Positions 25,544 through 48,508 of a stretch of DNA of 64,000 nucleotides are shown piece after piece. Location: positions 50,325 through 114,324 of the forward strand of contig NZ_JBIIOP010000009.1 of the NCBI RefSeq assembly GCF_044336875.1. Direction: 5' to 3'. This DNA comes from Brevundimonas sp. (GTDB taxonomy: Bacteria; Pseudomonadota; Alphaproteobacteria; Caulobacterales; Caulobacteraceae). Numbering within the stretch: the first letter of the stretch is position 1; each line of letters starts with the position of its first letter. Under the pieces are notes generated by a model. That model did no database searches and was not told the origin of the DNA. It saw only the letters and a program-made list of their open reading frames with translations. A program made the position numbers and the translations under genes.

Positions 25544-25565
25544 CGTCGGGTTGAAGCGAGAGAAG

Positions 25566-27431: not shown

Positions 27432-27445
27432 GGTAACCGGTGTCT
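27432..27445. promoter_or_regulatory. LacI operator (hexuronate regulon) upstream of uxaC
   Basis: GGTAACCGGTGTCT, reverse complement AGACACCGGTTACC. Confidence 0.8.
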
Positions 27446-27529
27446 TTTTCTGCGCGACGTAGTATCTGGTCCCGATCAGACTCGCGAGGCGATCCAACGC
27501 CTCCGCATCGAGGATCAGTGAAGGACGTC

Positions 27530-30426: not shown

Positions 30427-30453
30427 TCTGATGGCCGAGTTCGTCGCTTCCTG

Positions 30454-30600
30454 CCTTCTCCCCTCGGGGGAGAAGGTGGGCCCGAAGGGCTCGGATGAGG
30501 GGGCTCTGTCCGCCTCGCTGACGACAAGAGTGGGCCTGCGTCTGGCGGCCCCCTCATCCGTCTCGCTCCGCGAGCCACCTTCTCCCCCAAGGGGAGAAGG
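30454..30600. repeat. 147-bp CIR/REP-like palindromic intergenic element
   Basis: CCTTCTCCCCTCGGGGGAGAAGGTGGGCCCGAAGGGCTCGGATGAGGGGG - spacer - CCCCCTCATCCGTCTCGCTCCGCGAGCCACCTTCTCCCCCAAGGGGAGAAGG. Inverted arms, each with internal hairpins. Confidence 0.85.
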
Positions 30601-30618
30601 AAGAAACGAGGTTAGTCC

Positions 30619-35023: not shown

Positions 35024-36682
35024 TCAGGCGCCGAGCGCTTCGATCAGGTCGCCCATGTTTCGGATGAAGACCGAGGTCGAGACGCCCTCGACCGGGAAGT
35101 CGGTCTGATAGGGGGAGGTGTCCCACAGATCGCCGACGCGGGTCATCTGGTACTCGCCGCCGGTGACTGCGGTAGGCGAGGGGCCCTTGTAGGGGTTGGA
35201 GGTCGTGGTCAGGGGCGTGGCCCAGTAGCCGCGCGCATTGAGGGCGGAGATCAGATCGGCCGCACGATTGGCGTGCGGCGCGGTCGGGCGGCGGGCGTCG
35301 CTGGACATGTCCCAGACGTCCACGTCCTGCAGGGTGAAATATTTCGGCAGGTTCAGCGAGCCGGGACGGGCCTTCAGGGGCGAGCCACGGGTGGCCTCCT
35401 CGACCGGCAGGGCCGACAGGCGGGCGTATTCGGCGCGCAGGGCCGGGGTGTCGACGTTGCGGAACGAGCCGTAGTGGACGATCAGATTGGTCGGATTGTC
35501 GTCGGCGTAATACTGGCCGTTGGCGATGTTGGATCCGCGCCGGTGGATGTAGATCGGGGTGTTGGCCCCTTCCAGGATGAAGGTCGGGTGGGTGCGGCCC
35601 GGCGTGTTCAGCGGCGGTTTGGTCGCCACCTGGTCCAGCCAGTCCATCGCCTCGGGCAGGCGCGCCAGATATTTGCGGTCGCCGGTCAGGCGGTAGAAGC
35701 CCAGCATCGACTTGATGTTGGTGCCGGTGGCGTGGGTGACGAAGGCCTGGGGCTCGATGGTGCGGGCGCCGGCGGGCTTCAGGCTGTCGGGGAAATGCTG
35801 CAGGCCCCAGGCCGGCTGCGGCTGCGGCTGCTGGGTCTTCACGAAAATGTCCATGCCGCGGTGGATGGCGTCCAGCACCTTGGCGTCGCCCCGGCCGTTC
35901 CGCGCCAGGCCGTGGTAGGCGTAGATCAGGAACTCCAGGTTCTCGCCGGCCACATCGTCGTTGAAGGTGATGTAGGGGGTGTAGTCCTCATGCCCGTGCA
36001 GGCCGCCGTTCTCGACGAAGGGATAGCGCTGCGGCCAGCCGCCGTTCGGATACTGGCTCTCCAGCACGAAGCTGATCGCCTTGTTCAGCGGCGCCAGATA
36101 TTTGCGGTCCTTCTTCTCCAGATAGACGCGCAGCAGCAGCTGCGACGCCTCGGCCGTGCCGGCGTCGTCGAAGGTGGCGTTGCCGTAGTAGTGGTGGAAT
36201 TCCTCCAGCCGCCAGGCGTTGGCGGCGACCGTGCCGTACCACTGTTTCAGCGACTCCTCGCCGGCGGTGTCGATGACATAGTTCCAGCCGCCCAGCGGGT
36301 GCTGGCCCTTGACCAGGGCGTCGGCGGCCTTCTTGGCGGCCTCGTAGTAATAGTCGTCGCCGGTGGCGTGATAGGCGTCCATGAACAGGTGGCCCACCGT
36401 CGCCGTGCCGGGGGGCTGGACCCAGATCATGGTCGGGCCGGCTTCCAGTTCGCCCCAGCGGCGCGAGAAGTCGGGCAGATACTGCCAGACATAACCGCCC
36501 TCGACAGCGGCCTCCTCGCTCATGAACCGGGCGGCGCGCTTCATCGCATCCAGGACGGCGGCGCGGTCGGGCGAGGTCATGCCTCCAGGGTTTTGGGCAA
36601 GGGCGGGGCCGGAGGCGGCGACGAAGGTGGCGGCGGCGCCGGCGGCCAGCAGGGCGCGGCGGTTCATGGACGTGACGGACAT
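35024..36682 (-). CDS. Pectate lyase, PL10 family, Tat-exported
   Basis: NRRALL; ATFDDAGT, NGGWPQRYP, ITFNDD, AWGLQH..LKPAGARTIEP match PL10 motifs. ATG 36682 has GGAG upstream. Confidence 0.85.
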   Translation of the reverse strand: MSVTSMNRRALLAAGAAATFVAASGPALAQNPGGMTSPDRAAVLDAMKRAARFMSEEAAVEGGYVWQYLPDFSRRWGELEAGPTMIWVQPPGTATVGHLFMDAYHATGDDYYYEAAKKAADALVKGQHPLGGWNYVIDTAGEESLKQWYGTVAANAWRLEEFHHYYGNATFDDAGTAEASQLLLRVYLEKKDRKYLAPLNKAISFVLESQYPNGGWPQRYPFVENGGLHGHEDYTPYITFNDDVAGENLEFLIYAYHGLARNGRGDAKVLDAIHRGMDIFVKTQQPQPQPAWGLQHFPDSLKPAGARTIEPQAFVTHATGTNIKSMLGFYRLTGDRKYLARLPEAMDWLDQVATKPPLNTPGRTHPTFILEGANTPIYIHRRGSNIANGQYYADDNPTNLIVHYGSFRNVDTPALRAEYARLSALPVEEATRGSPLKARPGSLNLPKYFTLQDVDVWDMSSDARRPTAPHANRAADLISALNARGYWATPLTTTSNPYKGPSPTAVTGGEYQMTRVGDLWDTSPYQTDFPVEGVSTSVFIRNMGDLIEALGA

Positions 36683-36751
36683 GGAAACTCCTGGGGTGAC
36701 CTCTCTCGGACGGTTCTTGGCGACCGTTTCGAGGTTGTACTCAAGCATGAG

Positions 36752-36765
36752 TGACACCGGTTTCC
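36752..36765. promoter_or_regulatory. LacI operator upstream of the PL10 gene
   Basis: TGACACCGGTTTCC. Confidence 0.82.
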
Positions 36766-36838: not shown

Positions 36839-37882
36839 CTAGCGTCGGATGTCGAAACCGCCGTCGCCCATGGCCGCGCGCACCTCGTCGGCGGTGAACA
36901 GGTTGAAGTCGCCGGGCACCGAATGTTTCAGACCGGCGGCGGCCAGACCGAAGTCCAGCGCCTCCTGATCCGTCCATCCGCTCCATAGGCCGAACAGCAC
37001 CCCCGAGGCGAAGGCGTCGCCGCCCCCGACCCGGTCAACCACGCCCGCCATGTGGATGGCCTCGGCGTTGGTCTCGATCACGCCGTCCCCATCACGCGTC
37101 AGCATGACGGCGGACAGGGCCTGGTCCGCGACGCTCTCCTGAACCCGCAGGGTGCAGGCGATGCGTTGCAGGCGAGGGAAGGCGGCGAAGGCGGCCTTGG
37201 CGGCTTCGCGGCGACGCACGGCGGGATCGGCGCTGTCGAACCGGGTCTTCAGCACCAGGGCGAAGTCGCGGTCGTCGGCGAAGGCGACCGTGGCGCCCGA
37301 CAGCATCTTGCCCAGGGTGGTCGGCGGATCGCCGGCCCATTGCTCCCACAGCTTGCCGCGGAAATTGCCGTCATAGCTGACCTTCACCCCCTTGCGGACA
37401 GCCGCCTCGATGATCGCCACGGCGGCGGCCGAGCCGTTCGGACCCGTCGCCGGGGTCACGCCCGAGGCGTGCAGCCATTCGACGCCGTCCAGCAACTGGT
37501 CCCAGTCGAAGGCCGTGTCGACGTGGTCGACGAAGGCCGAGCCGGCGCGGTCGTAGAGGACTTCCGACGGCCGCCGCACGGCGCCGGGCGTCAGGAAATA
37601 CAGGCCCATCCGGCCGGGCTTGAACACGACCGGGGACGTGTCGACCCCGTGCTTGCGCACCTCGTCGCGGACGCCCCGGCCCAGGGCGTTGTCGGCCAGG
37701 ACCGTCGCCATGCTGGTCGGCGCGCCGAAACGGGCCAGGGACACGGCGACGTTCGCCTCGGCCCCCGCCGGACGGATGGTCAGGGCGGGGGACTGCATCA
37801 GCAGTTCGTTGTCGTTGGGCGAGAACCGCAGCAGCATCTCGCCGAAGCAAAGGATGCGTTTGGAGGAGGCGTTCTGAGACAT
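36839..37882 (-). CDS. kdgK: 2-keto-3-deoxygluconate kinase (PfkB)
   Basis: CFGEMLLR, AGAEANVA, VLYDRAGSA, SYDGNFRGKLW, DRVGGGDAF. Confidence 0.92.
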   Translation of the reverse strand: MSQNASSKRILCFGEMLLRFSPNDNELLMQSPALTIRPAGAEANVAVSLARFGAPTSMATVLADNALGRGVRDEVRKHGVDTSPVVFKPGRMGLYFLTPGAVRRPSEVLYDRAGSAFVDHVDTAFDWDQLLDGVEWLHASGVTPATGPNGSAAAVAIIEAAVRKGVKVSYDGNFRGKLWEQWAGDPPTTLGKMLSGATVAFADDRDFALVLKTRFDSADPAVRRREAAKAAFAAFPRLQRIACTLRVQESVADQALSAVMLTRDGDGVIETNAEAIHMAGVVDRVGGGDAFASGVLFGLWSGWTDQEALDFGLAAAGLKHSVPGDFNLFTADEVRAAMGDGGFDIRR

Positions 37883-38080: not shown

Positions 38081-38839
38081 TCAGCGCGCCTGCCAGCCGC
38101 CGTCGACCGGCAGGATGGCGCCTTGCACATAGTCCGAGGCCCGGCTGGCCAGGAAGACGGCCGCGCCGCCCAGATCCGACGGCTCGCCCCAGCGACCGGC
38201 CGGGATACGGCCCAGGATCTCGGCCGAACGCACCGGGTCCTCGCGCAGGGCCTGGGTGTTGGCCGTGGCGAAATAACCGGGGGCGATGGCGTTGGCGGTG
38301 ATGCGGTGGGGCGCCCACTCGTTGGCCATCAGCTTGGTCAGGCCGGCGACGCCCGACTTGGACGCGGTGTAGGAAGGCACGCGGATGCCGCCCTGGAAGG
38401 ACAGCATCGAGGCGATGTTGATGATCTTGCCGCCGTCGCCCTGTTTGATGAACAGGCGGGCGACCGCCTGGCTCATGAAGAAGACCGTCTTCAGGTTGAT
38501 GTTCATCACCAGGTCCCAGTCGGCCTCGGTGAAGTCCACGGCGTCGGCGCGGCGGATCAGGCCGGCGTTGTTCACCAGGATGTCGATCCGTCCCATGGCG
38601 TCCAGGGCTTCCTGAACCACGCGCTCGACCGGCTCGATCGAGGTCAGGTCGGCGCTGATCGCGTGGGCGCGGCGGCCCAGGGCGGTGACCTTGGCGACAG
38701 TGTCGTCGGACTCCGACAGGGCGACCGAGACGATGTCGGCGCCGGCCTCGGCCAGGGCCAGGGCGATGCCTTGGCCCAGACCCGTGTTGCCGCCGGTGAC
38801 CAGGGCGACCTTGCCGGTCAGGTCGAACGGATTGCTCAT
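38081..38839 (-). CDS. kduD: 2-dehydro-3-deoxy-D-gluconate 5-dehydrogenase
   Basis: TGGNTGLGQG, NNAGLIRR, IASMLSFQGGIRVPSYTASKS, RIPAGRWG. Confidence 0.96.
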   Translation of the reverse strand: MSNPFDLTGKVALVTGGNTGLGQGIALALAEAGADIVSVALSESDDTVAKVTALGRRAHAISADLTSIEPVERVVQEALDAMGRIDILVNNAGLIRRADAVDFTEADWDLVMNINLKTVFFMSQAVARLFIKQGDGGKIINIASMLSFQGGIRVPSYTASKSGVAGLTKLMANEWAPHRITANAIAPGYFATANTQALREDPVRSAEILGRIPAGRWGEPSDLGGAAVFLASRASDYVQGAILPVDGGWQAR

Positions 38840-38861: not shown

Positions 38862-39719
38862 TTACTTCAACTGGCAGACGTCGAGCTTGTGCATGTCGGT
38901 ATAGTCGAGATTCTCGCCGCCCATGCCCCAGATGAAGGTGTAGTTCGAAGTGCCTGCGCCCATGTGGATCGACCACGGCGGGCAGATCACGGCCTCGCCG
39001 TCGGCGACGACGATGTGGCGCGCCTTGTCCGGCTCGCCCATGAAGTGGAAGGCGCGGTCGGTCTCGCTCAGGCCGAAATAGAGATAGGCCTCGGAGCGAC
39101 GATCGTGGATGTGCGGCGGCATGGTGTTCCACACCGAGCCGGGCTTCAGCACGGTCACGCCCAGCAGCAGCTGGCAGGACTTCACCTTGGCCGGGACCAC
39201 ATACTGGTAGATGGTCCGTTCGTTGGACGTCTCCAGCGCGCCCATCTCCAGCGGCACGGCCTCGTCGATCGAGATCTTGGTCAGGACGTGGCGGGCGTGG
39301 GCCGGGGTGGCGACCAGATAGAATTTCGCCGGTTCGGCCGGGTTCTTCGAGGTGAAGCCGACCTCGGTCGAGCCCATAGGCACATAGAGGCCGTCGCGGA
39401 AGCCCAGGTCGATGGTCTCGCCGTCGACGGTGATCGAACCCGCGCCGCCGATATTGACCACGCCCAGCTCGCGGGCCTGCAGGAAGGCCGCGCCGGCCAG
39501 CGACGGCGGCTCGGACTGGGTCGGCAGGGTCAGGGCGGTTTCTGTCGGGGTGGCGCCGCCGATGATCATCCGCTCGTGGTGCGAATAGTTCAGGCTGATC
39601 CTGCCGGGAACGAACAGGCCCTCGATCAGGTAGCGGTCGCGCAGCTGCTGGTTCGTGGCGCCGTCCATCATGTCGGGATGGGTGGCCTGATAGACTTTGT
39701 CGTACATGGGGTCGTACAT
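38862..39719 (-). CDS. kduI: 4-deoxy-L-threo-5-hexosulose-uronate ketol-isomerase
   Basis: [57 protein letters not shown]-like motif, WGMGGEN. Confidence 0.96.
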
Positions 39720-39789: not shown

Positions 39790-39803
39790 GGTAACCGGTG
39801 TCA
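39790..39803. promoter_or_regulatory. LacI operator between divergent kduI and the RpiB-fold isomerase
   Basis: GGTAACCGGTGTCA, reverse complement TGACACCGGTTACC. Confidence 0.85.
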
Positions 39804-39881: not shown

Positions 39882-40544
39882 ATGAAGATCGCTCTCATCA
39901 TCGAAAACAGCCAGGCCGCCAAAAGCGAGACGGTGCACGCCGCGCTGACCGCCGTCGCGGAACCCCTGGGCCATGAAGTCTTCCACTATGGAATGTATGC
40001 GGCCGAGGACAAGGCGTCGCTGACCTATGTGATGAACGGCGTCCTGACCGCCATCCTGCTGAACTCGGGCGCGGCCGATTTCGTCGTCACCGGCTGCGGC
40101 ACGGGCATGGGCTCGATGCTGGCCTGCAACAGCATGCCGGGCGTCTTCTGCGGCCTGGTCATCGACCCGACCGACGCCTTCCTGTTCGGCCAGATCAATG
40201 ACGGCAACGCCATCTCCATGCCCTACGCCAAGGGCTTCGGCTGGGCGGCGGAACTGAACCTGCAGGACGTCTATCGCAAGCTGTTCGAGGGCGAGCGCGG
40301 CCTGGGCTATCCGAAGGAACGCGCCGAGATCATGCGCAAGAACCGCGGCGTGCTCAGCGGCCTGAAGGCCGTCACCTGCCACGACATGCTGACCGTGCTG
40401 AAGACGATGGACCAGGACCTGCTGAAGGCGGCCATCGCCGGCGAGCGCTTCCAGGACTACTTCTTCGCCAACGCCACCGACGAAGGCATCCGCGACTATC
40501 TGAAGGGTGTTCTCAGCGCCAAGCCCGCGCTGGAAATGGCCTAA
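39882..40544 (+). CDS. RpiB/LacA/LacB-fold isomerase, DhuI-like
   Basis: MKIALIIENSQAAK, AILLNSGAADFVVTGCGTG, AKGFGWAAELNL and GYPKER match streptococcal DhuI as recalled. Confidence 0.85.
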   Translation: MKIALIIENSQAAKSETVHAALTAVAEPLGHEVFHYGMYAAEDKASLTYVMNGVLTAILLNSGAADFVVTGCGTGMGSMLACNSMPGVFCGLVIDPTDAFLFGQINDGNAISMPYAKGFGWAAELNLQDVYRKLFEGERGLGYPKERAEIMRKNRGVLSGLKAVTCHDMLTVLKTMDQDLLKAAIAGERFQDYFFANATDEGIRDYLKGVLSAKPALEMA

Positions 40545-40608: not shown

Positions 40609-41658
40609 TCAGGCCGCGTCGATCGCGGACTTGCGCACGACCAGGGCCGGACGGACCTCGTCCTGCTGCAGCTTGGCGGGGTCGACGCCGCGCATCGGCG
40701 CCAGCAGCTTCTCCGCCGCCATCCGTCCCATGTCGCGAATCGGCAAGCGCACCGAGGTCAGGTTCGGCCAGACCCGAGCCGCCATCGGCAGATCGTCGAA
40801 ACCGACCACGGACAGGTCGCGCGGAAGCTCCAGACCGCGTTCGCGGGCGGCCTGCATCACCCCGATGGCCATGTCGTCGTTCAGGGTGAAGATGGCGGTC
40901 GGCGGCGTCGCCAGCGACAGCAGGGCGTGCCCGGCCTCGACCCCCGATTCGAACGTATAGGCGCCCTTGAAGTCATAGGCGGGGTCCAGCGGAATGCCGC
41001 GCTCGGTCAGGGCGTCCAGGAAGCCCTGGCCCCGCACCGCCGACGACCGGAACAGGTCCGGACCGCGCACCAGGCCGATCCGCCTGTGGCCCAGATCCGC
41101 CAGATGGTTCGCCGCCTCGGCCGCCCCGACGCCGTCGTTGGTCACGACCATCGACTGGGGCTCGTCCAGCGCCACCGAGGCGATGCGGACATAGGGGCAG
41201 TCCAGATCCTGCAGCAGTTCGATGACCTTTTCGTCCTCGGACACCGACGGCGGCATGATGACGCCGAACAGCCGCTGGCGCTCGACGAAGCCCTTGATGT
41301 CTTCCAGCAGGGTAGGGGAGTTGCGGTTGCACGGGTGCACGACCAGCTCCAGGCCCGAGCCCTTCAGCGCATCCAGAACCCCCTGCTGCATGTTGACCAC
41401 ATAGGTCGGGCTGGGGTTGTCGTAGATCAGACCGACCAGGAAGGACCGGCGGAAGGCCAGGCCGCGCGCCTGAGGGTCCGGGGTGAAGCCCAGGGTCTTG
41501 ATGACCGCATTGACCCGTTCGCGCGTGTCCTCACGCACGAAGGGCGACTGGTTGATCACCCGCGAGACGGTCTTCTTGGAGACTTTCGCCTCTCGGGCGA
41601 CGTCGTTGATCGTAGCCCGCTTGGCCGGCTTGCCGGTGCGCGGATCGTCTTGAGCCAA
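40609..41658 (-). CDS. LacI-family repressor (hexuronate regulator, HumR-like)
   Basis: ATINDVAREAKVSKKTVSRVIN HTH, hinge ARGL, VVGFDD, LTSVRLPIRDMG. Confidence 0.93.
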   Translation of the reverse strand: MAQDDPRTGKPAKRATINDVAREAKVSKKTVSRVINQSPFVREDTRERVNAVIKTLGFTPDPQARGLAFRRSFLVGLIYDNPSPTYVVNMQQGVLDALKGSGLELVVHPCNRNSPTLLEDIKGFVERQRLFGVIMPPSVSEDEKVIELLQDLDCPYVRIASVALDEPQSMVVTNDGVGAAEAANHLADLGHRRIGLVRGPDLFRSSAVRGQGFLDALTERGIPLDPAYDFKGAYTFESGVEAGHALLSLATPPTAIFTLNDDMAIGVMQAARERGLELPRDLSVVGFDDLPMAARVWPNLTSVRLPIRDMGRMAAEKLLAPMRGVDPAKLQQDEVRPALVVRKSAIDAA

Positions 41659-41737: not shown

Positions 41738-41751
41738 TGACACCGGTTTCC
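41738..41751. promoter_or_regulatory. LacI operator overlapping a TTGACA -35 element
   Basis: TGACACCGGTTTCC; TTGACA at 41737-41742. Confidence 0.85.
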
Positions 41752-41827: not shown

Positions 41828-42655
41828 ATGAGCGCGACGCCCGTCACACCGTCCGGCGTCTCCGCCGAGGCGACGGCGATCGCGGAGCAATTCGTCGCCG
41901 CCCGCCTCGCCGCCCGCTGCACGCCCGACTATCCGGGCCGCATTCCCGAGAGCATGGCCGAATCCTACGCCATTCAGGACATCGCCATCGGCCTGTTCCC
42001 CGACGAGGTCGTGGGCTGGAAGGTCGGCGGCGTGCCGCCCGCTCTGCAGCCGAAACTGGGCGTCCATCGCCTGGCCGGCGCCATCTTCGCCCGCAACGTC
42101 TGGCCTGCGCCGGGCGACACGGTCGTGCCCCTGCCCGAGATCGAGGGCGGGTTCGCCGCCGTCGAATCGGAATTCATCGCCCGCATCGGCGCAGACGCCG
42201 ATCCGGCCAAGACCGACTGGACCGTCGAGGAGGCCAAGGCCGCCGTCGACAAGGTCTTCATCGGCGTGGAGCTGGCCGGCAGTCCCCTGTCGGCCATCAA
42301 CGACCTTGGCTCGGCTGTCGTGGCCTCGGACTTCGGCAACAACGGCGGCCTGATGGTCGGGCCGGAAGTCGAGAACTGGCGCGACGTGCTGGACGACATC
42401 CAGGTCGAGACCGTCATCAACGGCGCCAGCGTCGGCACGGGCGGCTCGCCCTCGCTTCAGGGCGGGGCGATGGAATCCGTCCGCTTTCTGCTGGAACACT
42501 GCGCCCGGTGGGGCCGTCCGCTGAAGGCGGGCACGCTTGTTTCGACCGGCGCGGTAACCGGTGTCCATCGGGTCCACGCGGGCGACGAGGCCGTGTGCAT
42601 CTTCAAGGGTATTGCTGAACTCCATTGTTCGGTCGTTCGGGCCGAGATCAAGTAA
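41828..42655 (+). CDS. FAH-superfamily 2-keto-4-pentenoate hydratase-like protein
   Basis: YAIQD, GWKVG, VESEF, VELA, SDFGNNGG, LKAGTLVSTGA (MhpD-like pattern). Substrate unknown. Confidence 0.82.
   Translation: MSATPVTPSGVSAEATAIAEQFVAARLAARCTPDYPGRIPESMAESYAIQDIAIGLFPDEVVGWKVGGVPPALQPKLGVHRLAGAIFARNVWPAPGDTVVPLPEIEGGFAAVESEFIARIGADADPAKTDWTVEEAKAAVDKVFIGVELAGSPLSAINDLGSAVVASDFGNNGGLMVGPEVENWRDVLDDIQVETVINGASVGTGGSPSLQGGAMESVRFLLEHCARWGRPLKAGTLVSTGAVTGVHRVHAGDEAVCIFKGIAELHCSVVRAEIK
42553..42566. promoter_or_regulatory. Intragenic LacI operator upstream of exuT
   Basis: GGTAACCGGTGTCC inside the hydratase 3' end, 176 nt before the exuT ATG. Confidence 0.65.
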
Positions 42656-42741: not shown

Positions 42742-44028
42742 ATGACTGACGCTTCGAGCGCGGCGCCGATCGAGATCAAGGCGCCGTCACCGGGCAAATA
42801 CCGGTGGGTGATCATGTGGCTGCTGTTCGCGGCCATGGTCATCAACTACGTCGACCGGCAGATGATCGGCTTCCTCAAGCCGACCCTGTCCGCCGAGTTC
42901 GGCTGGTCCGAGACCGACTATGCCGACATCGTCTTCTGGTTCCAGGCCTCCTACGCCGTGGCCTATCTGCTGTGGGGCCGGATCATGGACAAGGTCGGGG
43001 CCCGCTGGGGTCTCGGCGTCGCCTTCGGCATCTGGCAGATCGGCCATATCCTGCACGGCGCGGCCCGCGACCTGTCGCACTTCATGATGGCGCGGATGGT
43101 TCTGGGCGTCGGCGAGGCCGGCGGCTTCCCCGGCGGCATCAAGGCGGTCGCCGAGTGGTTCCCCAAGAAGGAACGCGCCCTGGCCACCGGTCTGTTCAAC
43201 GCCGGCACCAATATCGGCGCCATCGTCACCCCGCTGATCGTGCCCGGCCTGGTCCTGGCCTTCGGCTGGGAGATGGCCTTCGTCATCACCGGCGCCCTGG
43301 GTCTGATCTGGCTGCCGATCTGGCTGCTGGTCTATCGTCGTCCGCGCGAGCAGAAGAACCTGTCGGCGACCGAACTGGCCTATATCGAGCAGGATCCGGC
43401 CGACGTCGTCGAAAAGGTCAAATGGACCAAACTGCTGGGCGTTCGCGAAACCTGGGCCTACGCCCTGGGCAAGTTTCTGATCGACCCGATCTGGTGGATG
43501 TTCCTGTTCTGGCTGCCCGACTTCCTGGGCAAGACCTACGGCCTGGACCTGAAGAGCTTCGGCCCGCCGCTGGTGGCCATCTATCTGTTGAGCGACGTGG
43601 GTTCTGTCGGCGGCGGCTGGCTGTCCTCGCGCTTCATGCATCGCGGCATGAGCGTCAACAACGCCCGCAAGATCACCATGCTGATCTGCGCCCTGTGCGC
43701 CGTGCCGGTGATGTTCGCCGCCGAAGCGTCGAACCTGTGGGTCGCGGTCGGCATCATCGGCCTGGCCACCGCAGCCCACCAGGGCTTCTCGGCCAACCTC
43801 TACGCCTTCCCCGGCGACGTCTTCCCGCGCTCGGCCGTGGGCTCGGTCGTCGGCATCGGCGGGATGCTGGGCGCCATCGGCGGCATGGCCATGGCCAAAT
43901 ACGCCGGCTACGTCCTGGAGCAGATCGGCACCTATACGCCCATCTTCATCGTCGCGGGCTCGGCCTATCTGATCGCCCTGCTGGTGGTCCACCTGCTGTC
44001 GCCGAAATACGCGCCGGCAAAGGTCTGA
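42742..44028 (+). CDS. exuT: Hexuronate MFS transporter
   Basis: INYVDRQ, LGVGEAGGFPGGIKAVAEWFPKKERALATGLFNAGTNIGA, DPIWWMFLFWLP, AAHQGFSANL. Confidence 0.93.
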   Translation: MTDASSAAPIEIKAPSPGKYRWVIMWLLFAAMVINYVDRQMIGFLKPTLSAEFGWSETDYADIVFWFQASYAVAYLLWGRIMDKVGARWGLGVAFGIWQIGHILHGAARDLSHFMMARMVLGVGEAGGFPGGIKAVAEWFPKKERALATGLFNAGTNIGAIVTPLIVPGLVLAFGWEMAFVITGALGLIWLPIWLLVYRRPREQKNLSATELAYIEQDPADVVEKVKWTKLLGVRETWAYALGKFLIDPIWWMFLFWLPDFLGKTYGLDLKSFGPPLVAIYLLSDVGSVGGGWLSSRFMHRGMSVNNARKITMLICALCAVPVMFAAEASNLWVAVGIIGLATAAHQGFSANLYAFPGDVFPRSAVGSVVGIGGMLGAIGGMAMAKYAGYVLEQIGTYTPIFIVAGSAYLIALLVVHLLSPKYAPAKV

Positions 44029-44086: not shown

Positions 44087-45724
44087 ATGGCCTTCTCGAG
44101 ACGCAGCGCCCTCTTGGGCGGACTTCTGGGCGGTGTCGGCCTGGCGGGCGCCTCCGCTCCGCCGGCGTCAGCCCAGACCCGCGACCGGATCGCCCCGGTC
44201 GGTCGTGAATGGGACACCCTGCGCTGGCGGCCGGGGGTCGAGGGCCAGCGGCGCGCCGATCTGGGCGACGGGACCTATCTGAACCCCGTCATGGCCGGTG
44301 ACCATCCGGATCCGTCGATCCTGAAGGACGGCGACGTCTGGTACATGACCTTCTCGTCGTTCGAATCCGTGCCCGGCGCCGTGATCTGGCGCTCGACCGA
44401 TCTGGTGAACTGGACGCCGGTGGTGGCGGCCCTGACGACCAATATCGGGTCCGTCTGGGCGCCCGAGCTGTGCAAGCACGACGGGCAGTATTTCATCTAT
44501 CTGCCGGCCCGCACCGATACCTATCGCTCCAACTACGTCATCTGGGCCGACCGGATCGAAGGGCCGTGGAGCGAGCCCGTCGACCTGAAACTGCCGGAGC
44601 ATATCGACCCCGGCCACATCGTCGGCGAGGACGGGAAACGCTATCTGTTCCTGAACGGCGGCGATCGGGTGCAATTGTCTGATGACGGCTTGTCCACGGT
44701 GGGCGAGGTGACCCACGTCTACGACCCCTGGCGCTATCCCGACGACTGGGTGGTCGAAGGTTTCGCGCCGGAGGGGCCGAAACTGCTGCGTCGCGGCGAC
44801 TGGTTCTACATGATCACCGCCGTCGGCGGCACGGCCGGTCCGCCGACCGGCCACATGGTCATCACCGCCCGGTCAAGATCCATCCACGGTCCATGGGAGA
44901 ACTGCCCGGCGAACCCTCTGGTCCGCACCGAAAACGCAGCCGAGAAATGGTGGTCGCGCGGTCACGCCACCCTGATCGAGGGACCGGGCGGCGGCTGGCA
45001 CATGGTCTATCACGGCTATGAGAACGCCTACTGGACCCTGGGCCGTCAGACGCTGTTGGACCCGATCGAATGGACCGACGACGGCTGGTTCCGCGCCTTG
45101 GGCGGCGACCTGTCCCGCCCGCTGGCGATGCCCGCTCCGGCGACGGCGACTTCCGTTCATGGCATGGCTCTGTCGGACGATTTCTCGACCGACAAGTTCG
45201 GCGTCCAGTGGAGCTTCTACGATCCCGCGCCGGGCGAGCGCTCACGCCTGTCCCGCGCAGGCGGCGTCATGACCCTCGCCGCCAAGGGAACCGCGCCCAA
45301 GGACTGTTCGCCCCTGACCTTCGTTCAGGGCGAATTGGCCTATGAGTTCGAATGCGAGATCGAGGTGGATCCGGGCTGCACCGCCGGTCTGGTGCTTTTC
45401 TACGATCGCGCCCTCTACGCCGGCCTCGGTTTCGACGGCGAGAAGTTCGTCACCCATCAGTACGGGATCGAACGGGGTCGCCCCGCCAATCCGCACGGCC
45501 GACGGATGTGGCTGCGTCTGACCAATGACCGCCATATCGTCAGCTTCCACCACAGCGCGGACGGCAAGACCTGGCAGATCTTCCGAGACCGCCAGATGGA
45601 GGTCTCGGGCTATCACCATAATGTCCGTGGCGGCTTCATGATGCTGCGGCCGGGTCTCTATTCTGCAGGACGGGGCCAGGCCGTTTTCCGCGACTTCCGC
45701 TTCCGTACGCTGGGAACCGAATAG
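44087..45724 (+). CDS. GH43 glycosidase (beta-xylosidase/arabinofuranosidase-like) with C-terminal beta-sandwich, Tat-exported
   Basis: SRRSALL; NPVMAGDHPDPS, WAPE, IDPGH, PEGPKL, GHATL. Confidence 0.9.
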   Translation: MAFSRRSALLGGLLGGVGLAGASAPPASAQTRDRIAPVGREWDTLRWRPGVEGQRRADLGDGTYLNPVMAGDHPDPSILKDGDVWYMTFSSFESVPGAVIWRSTDLVNWTPVVAALTTNIGSVWAPELCKHDGQYFIYLPARTDTYRSNYVIWADRIEGPWSEPVDLKLPEHIDPGHIVGEDGKRYLFLNGGDRVQLSDDGLSTVGEVTHVYDPWRYPDDWVVEGFAPEGPKLLRRGDWFYMITAVGGTAGPPTGHMVITARSRSIHGPWENCPANPLVRTENAAEKWWSRGHATLIEGPGGGWHMVYHGYENAYWTLGRQTLLDPIEWTDDGWFRALGGDLSRPLAMPAPATATSVHGMALSDDFSTDKFGVQWSFYDPAPGERSRLSRAGGVMTLAAKGTAPKDCSPLTFVQGELAYEFECEIEVDPGCTAGLVLFYDRALYAGLGFDGEKFVTHQYGIERGRPANPHGRRMWLRLTNDRHIVSFHHSADGKTWQIFRDRQMEVSGYHHNVRGGFMMLRPGLYSAGRGQAVFRDFRFRTLGTE

Positions 45725-45727: not shown

Positions 45728-46720
45728 ATGACTATGGACCGCCGCACCTTGCTGGGCCTGGCGGGCGCCGTCGTCGCCTCTCCGGCCCTGGCGCAACAGA
45801 CCCTGAGCCCGCGCCATCCGACACCGACCATCGCCCCACCCGATCCGACCGAGATCATCCGTCTGTGGCCGAACGGCGCGCCGGGCGGGGAGGGGGTCAG
45901 CGTCACCCCCGTCGTGCCCGAACGATCGACTGATCCGGCGTTCCACGACCGCTACGCCCAGTATACGACCGACCCGATCCTGACCGTCTTCCGGCCCGAG
46001 CGGCCGAACGGTTCGGCCCTGCTGCTGATCCCCGGCGGCGGCTATCGCTGGGCGGTGCTGGACAAGGAGGGCTATGACGTCGCCCGCGTCTTCGCCGAGA
46101 CCGGGACCACCTGTTTCGTCCTGCGCTACCGCCTGCCGGCCGACGGCTGGGCCGCCGGGGCCGACGCCCCGCTGCAGGACGCCCAGCGCGCCCTGCGCCT
46201 GATCCGCAGCCGCGCCGCCGACTATGGGCTGAAGCCCGACCGGATCGGCGTCCTCGGCGCCTCGGCCGGGGGCCATCTGGCGGGACTGGCCAGCGCCCGG
46301 ACCGATGCGACCTATGCTCCGGTCGACGCCGCCGACACGGTGTCGCTGCGCCCGGACCTGACGGTGCTCATGTATCCGGTCGCCACCATGGAAGATCCGC
46401 ACGTCCACGCCGGATCGCGCACCCACCTGCTGGGCGAGACGCCGACGCCGGAACGGATCGCCGCCTATTCGCTGGAGCGGATGGACTGGAAGGACGCCGC
46501 GCCGGTGTTTCTGGTCCACGCCATGGACGACGCCTCGGTGCCGGTCGAGAACAGTCTGCAACTGCTGACCACCCTCAAGGCCGCCGCCGTCCCGGCCGAG
46601 GCGCATCTGTTCCAGGAAGGCGGCCACGGCTTCGGCGTCCGCCTGATCCAGGGCAGGCCGGCCCAGGTCTGGCCCGATCTGGTCCGCGCCTGGGCCGCCC
46701 GGCTGGACTTCCCGCTCTAG
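45728..46720 (+). CDS. Alpha/beta-hydrolase esterase (PaeX/acetyl-esterase-like), Tat-exported
   Basis: DRRTLL; IPGGGY, GASAGG (Ser), HAMDDASVP (Asp), GGHGFG (His). Confidence 0.85.
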   Translation: MTMDRRTLLGLAGAVVASPALAQQTLSPRHPTPTIAPPDPTEIIRLWPNGAPGGEGVSVTPVVPERSTDPAFHDRYAQYTTDPILTVFRPERPNGSALLLIPGGGYRWAVLDKEGYDVARVFAETGTTCFVLRYRLPADGWAAGADAPLQDAQRALRLIRSRAADYGLKPDRIGVLGASAGGHLAGLASARTDATYAPVDAADTVSLRPDLTVLMYPVATMEDPHVHAGSRTHLLGETPTPERIAAYSLERMDWKDAAPVFLVHAMDDASVPVENSLQLLTTLKAAAVPAEAHLFQEGGHGFGVRLIQGRPAQVWPDLVRAWAARLDFPL

Positions 46721-48276
46721 GTTCCCGGCTGGACGTAGGGGATGGCCGAGAAGAAGGCCCGCTCGTCGCCGCGCGGGTCGTCGGCCATGCGCGACTCGAC
46801 GTCGAACAGCATCGTCTGGCGGCGCGCCAGCTCGTAGCGGTCCCAGCGCGGCAGGCCTGCATGGTTCGGGTCGCCGTCGCGGGCCAGGGCGAAGAAGGCC
46901 TTGCGCATCGCCTCCGACACGGTCTGGGCGCCCGGCCCGTTCACGCGGGATTCCGGAATGGCGACATTGTCGAAGACCAGGGCGATGTCGGCCGTGTGGA
47001 AGGCGCCCCTGCGTCCCGACGGCATGGTCCCCGGATAGTCGAGTTGATAGACCCAGGCCGGCGCCCCGGCCTTCGCCCGCTCCTCCGCCTCGATCACCGC
47101 GCCGCGCCAGGATCGGCCCGCCGTGGTGGCGGCGATCAGCACCTGATCCGGCGACCAGTCGGGATGCATCCGGCGGTATCCGGCGATCACCGCCTCCGGC
47201 GTGATGTCGATCCGCATCACCCCGGGCGTCAGCCGCGCGGGCAGGGTCTCCCAGCTCAGGCCGGCATTCTTCGGATCATTGCCCATGAAGCCCAGGGTCT
47301 CGTCCCGGGTATTGCCGATGATCATCGGAATCGACCGCCCCTGCGGCGCGGCGTCCGGATAGAAGGGATGGCGGGGCAGGGTGCGGAAATCCAGCACCGG
47401 CCCGAAATAGAGGCCGCCGAAGCCCAGGATCGGATCCTCGGTTCCTTGCGCCTCCAGCAGTCGCTCGACCGGCATCGTCGCCGCCTCGGCCGCCCGGTCC
47501 GGCGTCAGGCCCAGGGCCTTCAGCCAGGTCGTCGTCCGCGTCGTGGCGTTGATGGGGCCGGACGCCGTCACCTGCTGTCCGCTCATGGTCGCGGCGCGAT
47601 GGAACAGGCCCTGCGCGGCCGGCGTCGCCATAAGGGTGGCGATCTTGGCCCCGCCGCCCGACTGTCCGAACAGCATGACCCGGTCCGGATCCCCGCCGAA
47701 GGCGGCGATATTGTCCCGCACCCACTGCAGGGCCTGGATCAGGTCCAGCTGTCCCACATTGCCTGAATCCTCGAAGCCCGGCGCCAACCGCGCCAGATAG
47801 GCGTAGCCGAAGACGTTCAGCCGGTGATTGACCGTCACCACCACCACATCGCCGTGCTCGGCCAGTCGCGCGCCGTCATAAAGCGGATGGCTGCCTGACC
47901 CGGTCGCATAGGCGCCGCCGTGGATATAGACCATGACCGGCCGCTTTCCGGCGTCGGCGCCCGGCGTCCAGACGTTCAGGAACAGGCAATCCTCGCTCTG
48001 ATTCGCCTCGTCGCCGCGCTGGGGACTGGCGCCGCCGAAGGCGACCGCCCGGACCGGTTCGCGCCACGGCGTCGGCTTTTGCGGCGGCTGGAATCGTCTC
48101 GTCGCCGCGCCGTAACGCACGCCTTTGAAGACCCTGACCGCCTCACTGCGGATGCCGACGACGGGGCCTGCCGTGGTCAGCACCTGGGGATCGGTCGGCC
48201 CCGGTGCGGCGCGGGGCGAGGCGGGAAGGGCCGCGACCGCCAGCCCCGCCGCCAGGGCCGAACGTCGGCTCATCAT
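46717..48276 (-). CDS. Type-B carboxylesterase, Tat-exported
   Basis: SRRSAL; SEDCLFLNVW, YIHGGAY, FGQSGGG (Ser), NTRDET (Glu), GAFHTADI (His). Start could alternatively be 48315. Confidence 0.88.
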   Translation of the reverse strand: MMSRRSALAAGLAVAALPASPRAAPGPTDPQVLTTAGPVVGIRSEAVRVFKGVRYGAATRRFQPPQKPTPWREPVRAVAFGGASPQRGDEANQSEDCLFLNVWTPGADAGKRPVMVYIHGGAYATGSGSHPLYDGARLAEHGDVVVVTVNHRLNVFGYAYLARLAPGFEDSGNVGQLDLIQALQWVRDNIAAFGGDPDRVMLFGQSGGGAKIATLMATPAAQGLFHRAATMSGQQVTASGPINATTRTTTWLKALGLTPDRAAEAATMPVERLLEAQGTEDPILGFGGLYFGPVLDFRTLPRHPFYPDAAPQGRSIPMIIGNTRDETLGFMGNDPKNAGLSWETLPARLTPGVMRIDITPEAVIAGYRRMHPDWSPDQVLIAATTAGRSWRGAVIEAEERAKAGAPAWVYQLDYPGTMPSGRRGAFHTADIALVFDNVAIPESRVNGPGAQTVSEAMRKAFFALARDGDPNHAGLPRWDRYELARRQTMLFDVESRMADDPRGDERAFFSAIPYVQPGT

Positions 48277-48460
48277 GGCCCGTTCGGCTGTTTCTGTGTC
48301 CGCGTCCTGTCTCATCCGTCGTCCTTCCCTAAAAGCCGGCCTCTATCGGACCGGTCGTTTTGCACCTCTGCACAGCGGCTGGACGGCGCCGATGCGGAAA
48401 CGGGAAAAACCCGTCCGCCACCTTCTTGCCACCGACCCGCAACTGTGCGTACAACTTCTA

Positions 48461-48474
48461 TGACACCGGTAGCA
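48461..48474. promoter_or_regulatory. LacI operator (site 1 of 2) between esterase and TBDR
   Basis: TGACACCGGTAGCA. Confidence 0.72.
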
Positions 48475-48494
48475 GCGATCTGGCAAACCAGACC

Positions 48495-48508
48495 TGACAC
48501 CGGTGTCG
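48495..48508. promoter_or_regulatory. LacI operator (site 2 of 2)
   Basis: TGACACCGGTGTCG; near-perfect palindrome, 34 bp from site 1. Confidence 0.82.

What the first reader, a model, noticed from the sequence alone, without database searches (positions are those of the whole stretch)
41828..42655. Orphan FAH-fold hydratase leading the exuT operon: candidate missing step of unsaturated-uronate catabolism
An MhpD-like gene lies under the uronate operator with no aromatic meta-cleavage genes nearby. The window has PL10, KduI, KduD and KdgK but no Ogl/GH105, KdgF or Eda. Established: FAH-fold enzymes bind 2-keto acids/enolates at a metal site, and DKI, DKII and KDG are 2-keto acids. Hypothesis: a KdgF-analogous tautomerase/ring-opener, or a side-product repair enzyme.
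Basis: inference. Interest (0 to 1): 0.62.

Follow-up and report, generated by a model that had tools for sequence, protein, structure and literature searches.

The report
MhpD-like enzyme tied to uronate catabolism
A real, uncharacterised metal enzyme gene leads the uronate-transporter operon of a Brevundimonas pectin locus, and across about 100 related loci it sits with uronate transporters, pectate lyases and the KduI/DhuI-KduD genes, so it probably makes or conditions the keto-sugar those enzymes use, but no experiment yet shows the reaction.

Summary
Window 41828-42655(+) is a genuine 275-aa gene. It has the MhpD/HpcG/4-oxalocrotonate-decarboxylase fold (AF2 pLDDT 95.6; Foldseek TM 0.75-0.86) and keeps the Glu-x-Glu...Glu metal triad and the Lys. 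It scores 49 bits against the MhpD equivalog cut-off of 350, so it is not MhpD.

It lies 77 bp downstream of TGACACCGGTTTCC. That 14-mer recurs at five other intergenic sites of the window's pectin/uronate locus. It is conserved letter-for-letter (a few loci carry TGACACCGGT-GTCN or -TACC) upstream of the orthologue in 76 distinct loci, from Caulobacterales to Lysobacter.

The gene is not an orphan; at least 168 50%-identity clusters belong to the family. In 64 of 76 loci it is followed directly by an ExuT-like MFS or a TRAP transporter of the galacturonate/glucuronate-binding type. In 67 well-flanked loci, a DKI isomerase (KduI or RpiB-like DhuI) is present in 48, a lyase in 42, and Uxa genes in only 18. 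Distant members form TGT-KduI-KduD operons and isolated TGT-KduI pairs.

Best reading: a cytoplasmic enzyme that feeds DKI to KduI/DhuI, most likely by ketonising or ring-opening 4,5-unsaturated uronate, as KdgF does. Against strict equivalence, KdgF-like cupins co-occur with it in Sphingomonadales. The function is untested.

The parts
41828..42655 (+). TGT: 275-aa cytoplasmic MhpD-like (FAH-fold) enzyme. Metal triad E113/E115/E148 and K65. Family-specific invariants R26, Y47, Q50, W64, N158, N172, H247.
   Evidence: no signal peptide
41738..41751 (.). Operator-like site TGACACCGGTTTCC in the LacI<>TGT intergenic region, 77 bp before the ATG. It overlaps a TTGACA -35-like hexamer.
   Evidence: found upstream of the orthologue in 76 distinct loci, identical in most and as TGACACCGGT-GTCN/-TACC in the rest
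40609..41658 (-). LacI-family repressor, divergent from TGT; presumed reader of the operator.
   Evidence: divergent LacI upstream of TGT in 35 of 80 loci
42742..44028 (+). ExuT-like anion:cation-symporter-type MFS transporter, 87 bp after TGT.
   Evidence: immediately downstream of TGT in 51 of 76 loci
44087..45724 (+). Periplasmic GH43 glycosidase (Tat-type signal peptide), same operon run.
45728..46720 (+). Periplasmic PaeX-like pectin acetylesterase.
39882..40544 (+). RpiB/LacAB + DUF3666 protein. This is the same family as streptococcal DhuI, an alternative DKI isomerase.
   Evidence: alternates with KduI among loci; family assignment of DhuI from PMC12838403
38862..39719 (-). KduI, 5-dehydro-4-deoxy-D-glucuronate (DKI) isomerase.
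   Evidence: NF002091, 390.7 bits against cut-off 250
38081..38839 (-). KduD, 2-dehydro-3-deoxy-D-gluconate 5-dehydrogenase.
   Evidence: TIGR01832, 409 bits against cut-off 339
36839..37882 (-). KdgK-type PfkB sugar kinase.
35024..36748 (-). Periplasmic PL10 pectate lyase (574 aa, signal peptide).
36752..36765 (.). Second copy of TGACACCGGTTTCC, directly upstream of the PL10 start.
39790..39803 (.). Operator copy (TGACACCGGTTACC on the - strand) between KduI and the RpiB-like gene.
27432..27445 (.). Operator copy (AGACACCGGTTACC on the - strand) upstream of the UxaC-UxaB-UxaA operon.
48461..48508 (.). Two operator copies (48461-48474 and 48495-48508) between the carboxylesterase and TonB-dependent receptor genes.
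27440..32118 (+). UxaC (uronate isomerase), UxaB-like reductase and UxaA (altronate dehydratase): the saturated-galacturonate branch of the same regulon.
46717..48315 (-). Periplasmic carboxylesterase (COesterase family).
48579..51452 (+). TonB-dependent receptor of the locus.
32137..34800 (-). Second TonB-dependent receptor.

Best explanation
TGT is a cytoplasmic, divalent-metal-dependent enzyme of the MhpD/HpcG/4-oxalocrotonate-decarboxylase branch of the FAH superfamily. It has been recruited into the LacI-controlled pectin/uronate regulon.

Inferred sequence of events:
1. TonB-dependent receptors take in pectic oligomers.
2. Periplasmic PL10, esterases and GH43 process them.
3. The ExuT-like carrier (TRAP in other taxa) brings monouronates into the cytoplasm.
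4. TGT binds the carboxylate/O5 end of the 4,5-unsaturated uronate, or its ring-opened enol, on its Glu3-bound metal. It then catalyses ring opening and stereospecific ketonisation to 5-keto-4-deoxyuronate (DKI).
5. KduI or the RpiB-like DhuI, then KduD and KdgK, carry DKI to KDG-6-phosphate.

On this reading TGT works like KdgF but on an unrelated fold.

Shown here: the gene, its fold, the conserved metal site, the operator, and the conserved linkage to transporters and to KduI/DhuI-KduD. Inferred: the substrate and the reaction.
For: Fold and active site:
- AF2 pLDDT is 95.6.
- Foldseek top hits are 8ih6, 1sv6, 5d2i and 2eb4, with TM 0.75-0.86.
- The family profile matches MhpD at E 8e-22.
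- E113, E115, E148 and K65 are invariant across members at 35-53% identity.

Regulon:
- The 14-mer operator lies upstream of TGT and of the PL10, KduI/RpiB-like, UxaC and TBDR genes in the window.
- It lies upstream of the orthologue in 76 distinct loci.

Context:
- A transporter follows immediately in 64 of 76 loci.
- In 67 loci with at least 5 kb on both sides, a DKI isomerase is present in 48, KduD in 47, a lyase in 42 and Uxa genes in 18.
- A TGT-KduI-KduD operon lies beside an alginate-lyase-family gene (L090).
- Isolated TGT-KduI pairs occur in Litorimonas and a metagenome contig.
- A beta-helix-TGT pair sits in a GH106/sulfatase locus.

Absence of a rival enzyme:
- No KdgF-like cupin was found in the window or in about 90 non-Sphingomonad loci.
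- Literature: under 50% of KduI/DhuI-cluster strains have kdgF (PMC12838403).

Localisation:
- TGT has no signal peptide, whereas PL10, GH43 and the esterases do.

Established knowledge (mine, not checked here): hydratases of this branch perform an enzyme-catalysed ketonisation of a metal-bound 2-hydroxy-2-enoate as part of their reaction.
Against: - No biochemical or genetic data were found for any member. Ten full-text searches gave nothing on this family in uronate metabolism.
- KdgF-like Cupin_2 genes co-occur with TGT in Novosphingobium, Sphingobium, Croceicoccus and Erythrobacter loci. The two are therefore not mutually exclusive.
- The TRAP binding protein that follows TGT is closest to structures solved with saturated galacturonate and glucuronate: 4n8y at E 7e-91 and 4x8r at E 1e-79 (ligands from PMC11668362).
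- No enzyme known to release monomeric unsaturated galacturonate (Ogl, GH105) was seen in these loci. The source of the proposed substrate is therefore unresolved.
- In Phenylobacterium and Novosphingobium, TGT sits in uxaA(-uxaB)-TGT-exuT operons.
- Azospirillum members lie outside any uronate context.
Confidence: 0.38

Rival explanations
1. Uronate 4,5-dehydratase. TGT takes the saturated galacturonate/glucuronate delivered by ExuT or TRAP, removes H5 and the 4-OH, and forms DKI directly. This would create a GalA -> DKI -> DKII -> KDG route independent of UxaC/UxaB/UxaA.
For: - TGT is tightly coupled to carriers of the galacturonate/glucuronate type.
- Many loci hold TGT + transporter + KduI/DhuI + KduD + KdgK (+Eda) without Uxa genes and without Ogl/GH105, for example L091.
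- It would explain where DKI comes from.
Against: - Abstracting the alpha-proton of an alpha-hydroxy/alkoxy carboxylate is not known chemistry for this fold; all characterised members work on 2-oxo acids or enols.
- The window has a complete UxaCBA operon in the same regulon, which would make the route redundant there.
- Only 20-kb neighbourhoods were examined, so Uxa genes may lie elsewhere.
Confidence: 0.12
2. TGT acts on a 2-keto-3-deoxy intermediate (DKI, DKII or KDG, or the enol released by UxaA). It would be a hydratase/dehydratase, tautomerase, hydrolase or damage-control enzyme working beside KduI rather than before it.
For: - DKI, DKII and KDG are all 4-hydroxy-2-oxo acids, the product class of MhpD-type hydratases.
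- uxaA-TGT adjacency occurs in Novosphingobium and Phenylobacterium.
- The isolated TGT-KduI pairs lack KduD nearby.
- Other FAH-fold enzymes dehydrate or cleave sugar-acid keto intermediates; L-2,4-diketo-3-deoxyrhamnonate hydrolase 8gsr appears among the fold hits.
Against: - KduD and KdgK accompany TGT in most loci, so the standard route is complete without an extra step.
- Similarity to the sugar-acid FAH enzymes is only at superfamily level, TM about 0.5-0.56.
- No product of such a reaction has a known consumer in these loci.
Confidence: 0.15
3. Uronate mutarotase or ring-opening enzyme for saturated hexuronates. It would prepare the imported anomer for UxaC. This would explain the fixed position in front of the transporter gene, as with RbsD, FucU and RhaM.
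For: The enzyme-then-transporter arrangement occurs in 64 of 76 loci. The transporters resemble galacturonate/glucuronate carriers. Metal chelation of the carboxylate plus ring O5 could polarise the hemiacetal.
Against: Uxa genes are near TGT in only 18 of 67 loci, against 48 for KduI/DhuI. TGT-KduI(-KduD) operons have no UxaC.
Confidence: 0.08
4. Cytoplasmic oligogalacturonate lyase analogue (Ogl-like). It would split imported unsaturated digalacturonate.
For: Ogl/PL22 and GH105 were not seen in the loci. Ogl is also a Mn2+-dependent cytoplasmic enzyme (my knowledge). Divergent pairing with a pectate-lyase-like gene occurs in 18 of 80 loci.
Against: The coupled transporters are of monosaccharide-acid type. 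The active site of this fold is a small buried 2-oxo-acid pocket in the known structures. No precedent exists.
Confidence: 0.05
5. A genuine 2-oxopent-4-enoate hydratase or vinylogous decarboxylase of aromatic meta-cleavage that merely happens to lie here.
For: Database names given by sources ('2-keto-4-pentenoate hydratase'). Fold and metal site are as in MhpD.
Against: - It scores 49.5 bits against the 350-bit cut-off of the MhpD equivalog, and 39.7 and 26.4 bits for DmpH and DmpE.
- Identity to solved members is 19-25%.
- No meta-cleavage partner was seen in the scanned ORFs of the window or in the labelled or Pfam-scanned neighbours of about 100 loci.
- The uronate operator and context are conserved.
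Confidence: 0.02

Closest known systems
MhpD / DmpE / HpcG hydratases and NahK/DmpH 4-oxalocrotonate decarboxylases (FAH superfamily, PDB 1sv6, 2wqt, 8ih6, 2eb4, 5d2i)
   Same: Same fold over the full length (TM 0.75-0.86). Same Glu-x-Glu...Glu metal triad and conserved Lys. Similar size of about 260-280 aa.
   Different: - Only 19-25% identity, far below the equivalog cut-offs.
- Own invariant residues: R26, Y47, Q50, W64 (GWKVG instead of GR/LKVG), an SDFGNN loop instead of ADNAS, and TGVH with H247.
- It is never seen next to aldolase/dehydrogenase partners.
- It is always in sugar-acid rather than aromatic context.
KdgF (cupin; PDB 5fpx, 5fpz, 5fq0), which linearises unsaturated uronates to DKI/DEH
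   Same: - Position in the pathway is inferred from context: in operons with kduI-kduD, next to uronate transporters and lyases.
- Small, cytoplasmic and metal-dependent.
- Would fill the gap in the many KduI/DhuI-cluster strains that lack kdgF (PMC12838403).
   Different: - Unrelated fold: FAH beta-sandwich against cupin barrel.
- Activity is unproven.
- It co-occurs with KdgF-like cupins in Sphingomonadales, so the roles may be complementary (for example ring opening against ketonisation) rather than identical.
FAH-fold sugar-acid enzymes: 2-keto-3-deoxy-xylonate/arabinonate dehydratases (XylX type) and L-2,4-diketo-3-deoxyrhamnonate hydrolase (8gsr)
   Same: Precedent that the superfamily has been recruited to 2-keto-3-deoxy sugar acids. 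Metal-bound 2-oxo-acid chemistry.
   Different: A different branch of the superfamily, with TM only about 0.5-0.56. Different pathways (non-phosphorylative pentose/deoxyhexose routes).
Uninvestigated FAH-family gene in the alginate utilisation locus of Vibrio sp. C42 (JFJ08_17855; PMC13390454)
   Same: An FAH-family protein inside a uronate-polysaccharide locus, alongside KdgF, DEH reductase, KdgK and Eda. The authors left it unstudied.
   Different: Its sequence relationship to TGT was not tested here; it may belong to another FAH branch.

Membership tests
FAH superfamily, MhpD/HpcG/4-OD branch | FAH-type fold over the whole chain | tested here: met
   AF2 model pLDDT 95.6, pTM 0.92. Foldseek against PDB: 8ih6, 1sv6, 2wqt, 5d2i and 2eb4 at E 1e-17 to 2e-20, TM 0.75-0.86.
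FAH superfamily, MhpD/HpcG/4-OD branch | Significant match to the family profile | tested here: met
   Pfam PF01557 at 33.2 bits against gathering score 23.9. Family profile against MhpD at E 8e-22, full length.
FAH superfamily, MhpD/HpcG/4-OD branch | Three-carboxylate metal site (E-x-E ... E) and conserved Lys | tested here: met
   E113/E115 align with the EAE motif of MhpD/NahK, E148 with the third Glu, and K65 with the G-x-K-V/M-G Lys. All are invariant in 42 and in 18 diverse members. The residue roles come from my knowledge of the HpcG/NahK structures.
MhpD proper (2-oxopent-4-enoate hydratase, EC 4.2.1.80) | Score above the curated equivalog cut-off | tested here: not met
   NF008461 at 49.5 bits against 350; TIGR03220 at 26.4 against 408.8; TIGR03218 (decarboxylase) at 39.7 against 350.55.
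MhpD proper (2-oxopent-4-enoate hydratase, EC 4.2.1.80) | Operon with 4-hydroxy-2-oxovalerate aldolase/acetaldehyde dehydrogenase and a ring-cleavage dioxygenase | tested here: not met
   None in the scanned ORFs of the window. None among recurrent neighbours in 80+ loci.
MhpD proper (2-oxopent-4-enoate hydratase, EC 4.2.1.80) | Hydration of 2-hydroxypenta-2,4-dienoate | not testable with these tools
   Needs an enzyme assay.
KdgF (functional class: unsaturated-uronate linearising enzyme) | Cupin fold / homology to 5fpx, 5fq0 | tested here: not met
   TGT has the FAH fold. It can only be an analogue, not a member.
KdgF (functional class: unsaturated-uronate linearising enzyme) | Gene linkage to kduI/kduD (or dhuI), uronate transport and polysaccharide lyases | tested here: met
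   Isomerase in 48, KduD in 47, transporter in 55 and lyase in 42 of 67 loci. TGT-KduI-KduD and TGT-KduI operons.
KdgF (functional class: unsaturated-uronate linearising enzyme) | Mutually exclusive distribution with kdgF, as expected of a non-homologous replacement | tested here: inconclusive
   A cupin probe recognises PDB KdgF chains at E 5e-8 to 8e-7. It finds nothing in the window or about 90 loci. It does hit cupins in three Sphingomonad TGT loci. A 108-aa Cupin_2 lies 8 kb from TGT in Erythrobacter JK5. Whole genomes were not available.
KdgF (functional class: unsaturated-uronate linearising enzyme) | Acceleration of loss of the 230-235 nm chromophore of unsaturated monouronate; DKI/DEH as product | not testable with these tools
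   Needs an enzyme assay or NMR.
LacI-type pectin/uronate regulon of this organism | Operator copy in the promoter region, shared with the other catabolic operons | tested here: met
   TGACACCGGTTTCC at 41738-41751. The degenerate motif gives 13 strand-matches against 2.3 expected, at six intergenic positions all in the locus, plus three intragenic ones. The site is conserved in 76 distinct orthologous promoters. Binding by the LacI protein was not tested.

The most novel reading that the evidence does not exclude
TGT is a new kind of uronate 4,5-dehydratase (or, less likely, an Ogl-like lyase) on an FAH fold. It would turn imported saturated galacturonate/glucuronate directly into DKI. TGT-KduI/DhuI-KduD-KdgK-Eda would then be a complete hexuronate pathway independent of UxaCBA, widespread in Alphaproteobacteria. 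That would also explain why these loci carry KduI/KduD but no Ogl or GH105.
Probability: 0.1. Interest if true: 0.8.

Novelty: new variant of a known kind. Interest (0 to 1): 0.6.

Why it matters
Pectin, alginate, ulvan and glycosaminoglycan breakdown all converge on 4,5-unsaturated uronates and DKI/DEH. The step that makes DKI is assigned to KdgF or to spontaneous chemistry.

A recent survey found that fewer than half of the strains carrying KduI/DhuI clusters have kdgF (PMC12838403). A second, unrelated enzyme family may therefore be involved. This family is wired to the same isomerase-reductase genes, uronate transporters and lyases in Caulobacterales, Sphingomonadales, marine Hyphomonadaceae-like bacteria and some Gammaproteobacteria. 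It would either fill that gap or reveal an unrecognised step in uronate catabolism.

It would also correct the blanket annotation '2-keto-4-pentenoate hydratase' now given to these genes. That annotation wrongly suggests aromatic degradation in genome-based metabolic predictions.

The letter-perfect 14-bp operator shared across classes is a ready handle for regulon prediction.

Tried and rejected
- **Literature.** Ten full-text searches pairing the enzyme names with galacturonate, kduI, KdgF, Caulobacter or RB-TnSeq found no study of this family. Bouvier 2019 and Vetting 2015 were not held.
- **Fusion partners.** The longer relatives (P0137, P0150, P0254, P0260, P0264, P0269) are frameshifted or mis-started calls, not domain fusions.
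- **Transcript evidence.** Only metagenomic DNA runs hold the stretch, so co-transcription could not be checked.
- **Locus search with A1.** The 42-sequence alignment was too diverse for the locus search; a 10-sequence alignment worked.
- **Ogl/GH105/GH28 near TGT.** A Pfam scan of 118 unlabelled neighbours showed only heterogeneous housekeeping families in the top 25. Single occurrences cannot be excluded.
- **Separate regulation of UxaCBA.** I thought this operon might be regulated separately, which would have favoured the unsaturated branch. Rejected: an operator copy lies at 27432-27445.
- **KdgF probe.** A KdgF sequence written from memory proved only a distant cupin probe, scoring 32-36 bits to true KdgF chains. 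It was used only as such.
- **Model coordinates.** These are not exposed, so pocket geometry could not be examined.
- **Azospirillum members.** They lie next to a DMT transporter and DoxX without uronate genes and remain unexplained.
Full report
**1. The observation**

The window is 67% G+C, and its closest relatives are Brevundimonas. ORF 41828-42655(+) starts with ATG, encodes 275 aa and has GC3 of 0.87, like the neighbouring genes. Its exact product is on record on at least four metagenomic contigs. It has 1074 word-indexed relatives. An exhaustive HMMER search of the 50%-identity representatives found 2169 clusters, 168 of them at E<=1e-30. It is a real, conserved gene.

**2. What kind of protein it is**

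- Pfam gives only FAA_hydrolase, at 33.2 bits against a cut-off of 23.9.
- NCBIfam places it nearest the MhpD, DmpH and DmpE models, but at 49.5, 39.7 and 26.4 bits against cut-offs of 350-409.
- Against solved structures, the single sequence finds E. coli MhpD at E 1e-8.
- A profile of 42 family members finds MhpD (8e-22), NahK (8e-20), the AP-3 decarboxylase/hydratase pair and HpcG, all over the full length.
- An AlphaFold2 model built on that alignment is confident (pLDDT 95.6, pTM 0.92).
- Foldseek returns the same proteins with TM 0.75-0.86 at 19-25% identity. Other FAH-fold enzymes (FAHD1, YisK, fumarylpyruvate hydrolase, L-2,4-diketo-3-deoxyrhamnonate hydrolase) follow at TM about 0.5-0.58.

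The E-x-E...E motif that binds the metal in this branch, and the Lys of G-x-K-V-G, correspond to E113, E115, E148 and K65. All four are invariant in 42 and in 18 diverse members.

The family also has its own invariants: R26, Y47, Q50, W64, N158, N172 and H247. It has an SDFGNN loop where classical members have ADNAS, and TGVH near the C-terminus.

The conclusion is a catalytically competent member of the MhpD-like branch, but a distinct subfamily. It fails the test for being MhpD itself.

**3. The locus**

Pfam and NCBIfam scans and the gene calls on identical contigs give the following map:

| Coordinates | Strand | Gene |
|---|---|---|
| 27440-32118 | + | UxaC, UxaB-like reductase, UxaA |
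| 32137-34800 | - | TonB-dependent receptor |
| 35024-36748 | - | PL10 pectate lyase |
| 36839-37882 | - | KdgK |
| 38081-38839 | - | KduD |
| 38862-39719 | - | KduI |
| 39882-40544 | + | RpiB/LacAB + DUF3666 protein |
| 40609-41658 | - | LacI-family regulator |
| 41828-42655 | + | TGT |
| 42742-44028 | + | ExuT-like MFS |
| 44087-45724 | + | GH43 |
| 45728-46720 | + | PaeX-like esterase |
| 46717-48315 | - | carboxylesterase |
| 48579-51452 | + | TonB-dependent receptor |

PL10, GH43 and both esterases have Tat/Sec-type signal peptides. TGT, KduI and the RpiB-like protein have none. TGT is therefore cytoplasmic, next to the inner-membrane carrier.

The window has no Eda and no detectable KdgF-like cupin. 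No meta-cleavage genes were seen among the ORFs scanned. The latter belongs to the family of streptococcal DhuI, the non-homologous DKI isomerase (PMC12838403).

**4. The operator**

The LacI<>TGT spacer holds TGACACCGGTTTCC at 41738-41751, 77 bp before the ATG and overlapping a TTGACA hexamer.

The degenerate pattern TGACACCGGTKWCM with up to 2 mismatches gives 13 strand-matches in the window against 2.3 expected; no shuffle of 100 reaches 13. Six of the positions are intergenic:

- upstream of UxaC (27432)
- upstream of PL10 (36752)
- between KduI and the RpiB-like gene (39790)
- upstream of TGT (41738)
- two between the carboxylesterase and the receptor (48461, 48495)

The other three positions are intragenic: 38788 (in KduD), 42553 (in TGT) and 50417 (in the receptor).

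In 80 loci recovered from one genome per species, the motif lies 55-163 bp upstream of the orthologue in 76 distinct sequences. Most carry the identical 14-mer; a few carry TGACACCGGT-GTCN or -TACC. This holds in Brevundimonas, Caulobacter, Phenylobacterium, Terricaulis, Vitreimonas, Rhizomicrobium, Roseiterribacter, Lysobacter and Steroidobacteraceae, although the proteins are only 48-55% identical.

'Under the uronate operator' is therefore well founded as a cis-element. That the adjacent LacI protein binds it is inferred.

**5. Conserved context: the main new evidence**

- *Transporters.* Of 76 loci with enough downstream sequence, 51 have an ExuT-like MFS and 13 a TRAP DctP gene immediately after TGT on the same strand.
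- *TRAP specificity.* The TRAP binding protein is closest to PDB 4n8y (E 7e-91) and 4x8r (1e-79). These were solved with galacturonate and glucuronate (PMC11668362).
- *Upstream partner.* This is the LacI gene in 35 of 80 loci. In 18 it is a secreted protein without Pfam coverage. That protein is 53-63% identical to NCBI-annotated 'pectate lyase' of Sphingomonads and related to pectate lyase 9buj.
- *Co-occurrence.* In 67 loci with at least 5 kb on both sides, a DKI isomerase (KduI or RpiB-like) is present in 48, KduD in 47, a uronate transporter in 55, a lyase in 42, and any Uxa gene in only 18.
- *Sphingomonad plasmids.* These repeat the pattern pectate lyase - cupin - esterase - KdgK - KduD - RpiB-like/KduI - LacI <> (UxaA) - TGT - MFS.

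More distant members (35-41% identity) are the most telling:

- A TGT-KduI-KduD operon lies beside an alginate-lyase-family gene, a GH2 and an enolase-superfamily gene (L090).
- Isolated two-gene TGT-KduI units sit among unrelated genes in Litorimonas and a marine contig.
- A beta-helix protein-TGT pair lies in a GH106/sulfatase locus.
- In Erythrobacter JK5, TBDR-TGT-TRAP-LacI-RpiB-like lies next to an Alg17C-type lyase-Cupin_2-MFS-SDR-KdgK operon.

Remaining neighbours are heterogeneous housekeeping genes. Azospirillum members sit beside a DMT transporter with no uronate genes.

**6. Interpretation**

The family is functionally tied to the DKI isomerase-reductase module and to uronate uptake, not to aromatic catabolism and only loosely to the UxaCBA branch.

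The substrate binds through its carboxylate and O5 to the Glu3-held metal. Ring opening and ketonisation of the 4,5-unsaturated uronate (a 2-alkoxy/2-hydroxy-2-enoate) then give DKI, the substrate of KduI/DhuI. From my knowledge of labelling studies on vinylpyruvate and OHED hydratases, enzyme-catalysed ketonisation of exactly such a metal-bound enol is part of the normal mechanism of this branch. No new chemistry is needed. It would also answer the published observation that most KduI/DhuI-cluster strains lack kdgF. I give this reading about 0.38.

**7. Why not higher**

- No experiment exists.
- KdgF-like cupins coexist with TGT in Sphingomonadales. An uninvestigated FAH-family gene coexists with KdgF in a Vibrio alginate locus (PMC13390454). 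This suggests a role that complements KdgF rather than duplicating it.
- The coupled transporters look like carriers of saturated hexuronates.
- None of the loci shows Ogl or GH105, so it is unclear how a monomeric unsaturated uronate would arise.

These points feed the rivals:

| Rival | Confidence |
|---|---|
| True uronate 4,5-dehydratase making DKI from galacturonate/glucuronate | 0.12 (the most novel reading) |
| Enzyme acting on DKI/DKII/KDG or on the enol product of UxaA | 0.15 |
| Uronate mutarotase | 0.08 |
| Ogl-like lyase | 0.05 |
| Classical MhpD | 0.02 |

That TGT belongs to the uronate regulon and works in or next to the DKI branch I hold at roughly 0.8.

**8. Novelty and verdict**

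The fold and metal chemistry are known. The subfamily, its regulon and its pathway role are not described in the literature I could search. It is currently mis-named '2-keto-4-pentenoate hydratase' by the source databases. I class it as a new variant of a known kind.

Its interpretation is partly supported and now rests on comparative evidence from about 100 loci rather than on one window. Interest is 0.6: it is a cheap, decisive enzymology and genetics target, with a small chance of revealing a new hexuronate route.

Noticed in passing
window 39882-40544 (+), with KduI at 38862-39719 (-): The window carries both KduI and an RpiB/LacAB+DUF3666 protein (NCBIfam PRK09273, 321 bits), the family of the alternative DKI isomerase DhuI. 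Among Brevundimonas loci the two genes alternate: some have only KduI, many only the RpiB-like gene, some both. This looks like ongoing non-homologous replacement.
   Followed up: partly
window 41738-41751 and loci L003-L082: The 14-mer TGACACCGGTTTCC is identical in promoters of taxa as far apart as Brevundimonas, Phenylobacterium, Roseiterribacter, Lysobacter and Steroidobacteraceae. In non-Brevundimonas loci it lies between TTGAAA/TTGTAA-like and TAGACA/TATACA-like hexamers, that is, inside the promoter spacer. The cross-class identity suggests horizontal spread of the whole regulator-operator-operon unit.
   Followed up: partly
window 42553-42566 (- strand match GGACACCGGTTACC): An operator-like site lies inside the 3' end of TGT, about 190 bp before the ExuT start. 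It coincides with the codons for the family's conserved V-T-G-V-H motif (GTA ACC GGT GTC CAT). It could be coincidence or an auxiliary operator.
   Followed up: no
loci L038-L081 (cluster c9), L084:397-1689, L085:2559-3989: A secreted protein of 430-490 aa is annotated 'pectate lyase' by NCBI but has no Pfam family. It shows only a partial match to PDB 9buj (E 3e-17). It is the commonest divergent neighbour of TGT outside Brevundimonas. Its product profile (endo or exo, monomer-releasing or not) bears directly on TGT's substrate.
   Followed up: partly
L084:1686-2108, L085:3986-4393, L087:293-640; L100:781-1107: Small Cupin_2 genes are co-transcribed with lyase genes in Sphingomonadales TGT loci. 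They are weakly similar to a probe that recognises KdgF structures. Homologues also occur in L026 and in the Lysobacter locus L071, right after KduD.
   Followed up: partly
window 27440-28945 (+): The mechanical UxaC ORF starts with GTG at 27440, inside the operator copy at 27432-27445, and the Pfam match begins at residue 50. The true start is probably about 30-50 codons downstream (an ATG gives 'MAHPLKLNPDRLF...').
   Followed up: no
window 5459-26939: Upstream of the pectin locus lies a separate glycan-utilisation region with no copy of the uronate operator. It holds GH97, a tryptophan-halogenase-like gene next to a TonB-dependent receptor, a GH35/42-like protein with DUF5597, GH31, a SASA-type esterase, GH29 fucosidase, a BNR/Sortilin-repeat protein, GH3, and a GH5 beta-mannosidase-like protein (25512-26939; no Pfam hit, but E 2e-110 to Cellvibrio Man5A 1uuq). 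It looks like a xyloglucan/mannan-type system.
   Followed up: partly
window 174-5411: An SSF sodium:solute symporter, an IclR regulator, an SDR and an IlvD/Edd-family dehydratase lie together. This is a probable separate sugar-acid catabolic module.
   Followed up: no
L083 and L086 (Azospirillum plasmids): Azospirillum members of the family (43-46% identity) are followed by a DMT-family transporter and a DoxX protein. They are preceded by an M20 deacylase-like gene, and no uronate genes are near. DoxX also follows TGT in Croceicoccus (L087). This is unexplained.
   Followed up: no
PMC13390454 (Vibrio sp. C42 alginate locus, JFJ08_17855): An FAH-family protein sits inside a characterised alginate utilisation locus together with KdgF and was explicitly left uninvestigated. 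It is worth testing whether it is related to TGT.
   Followed up: no
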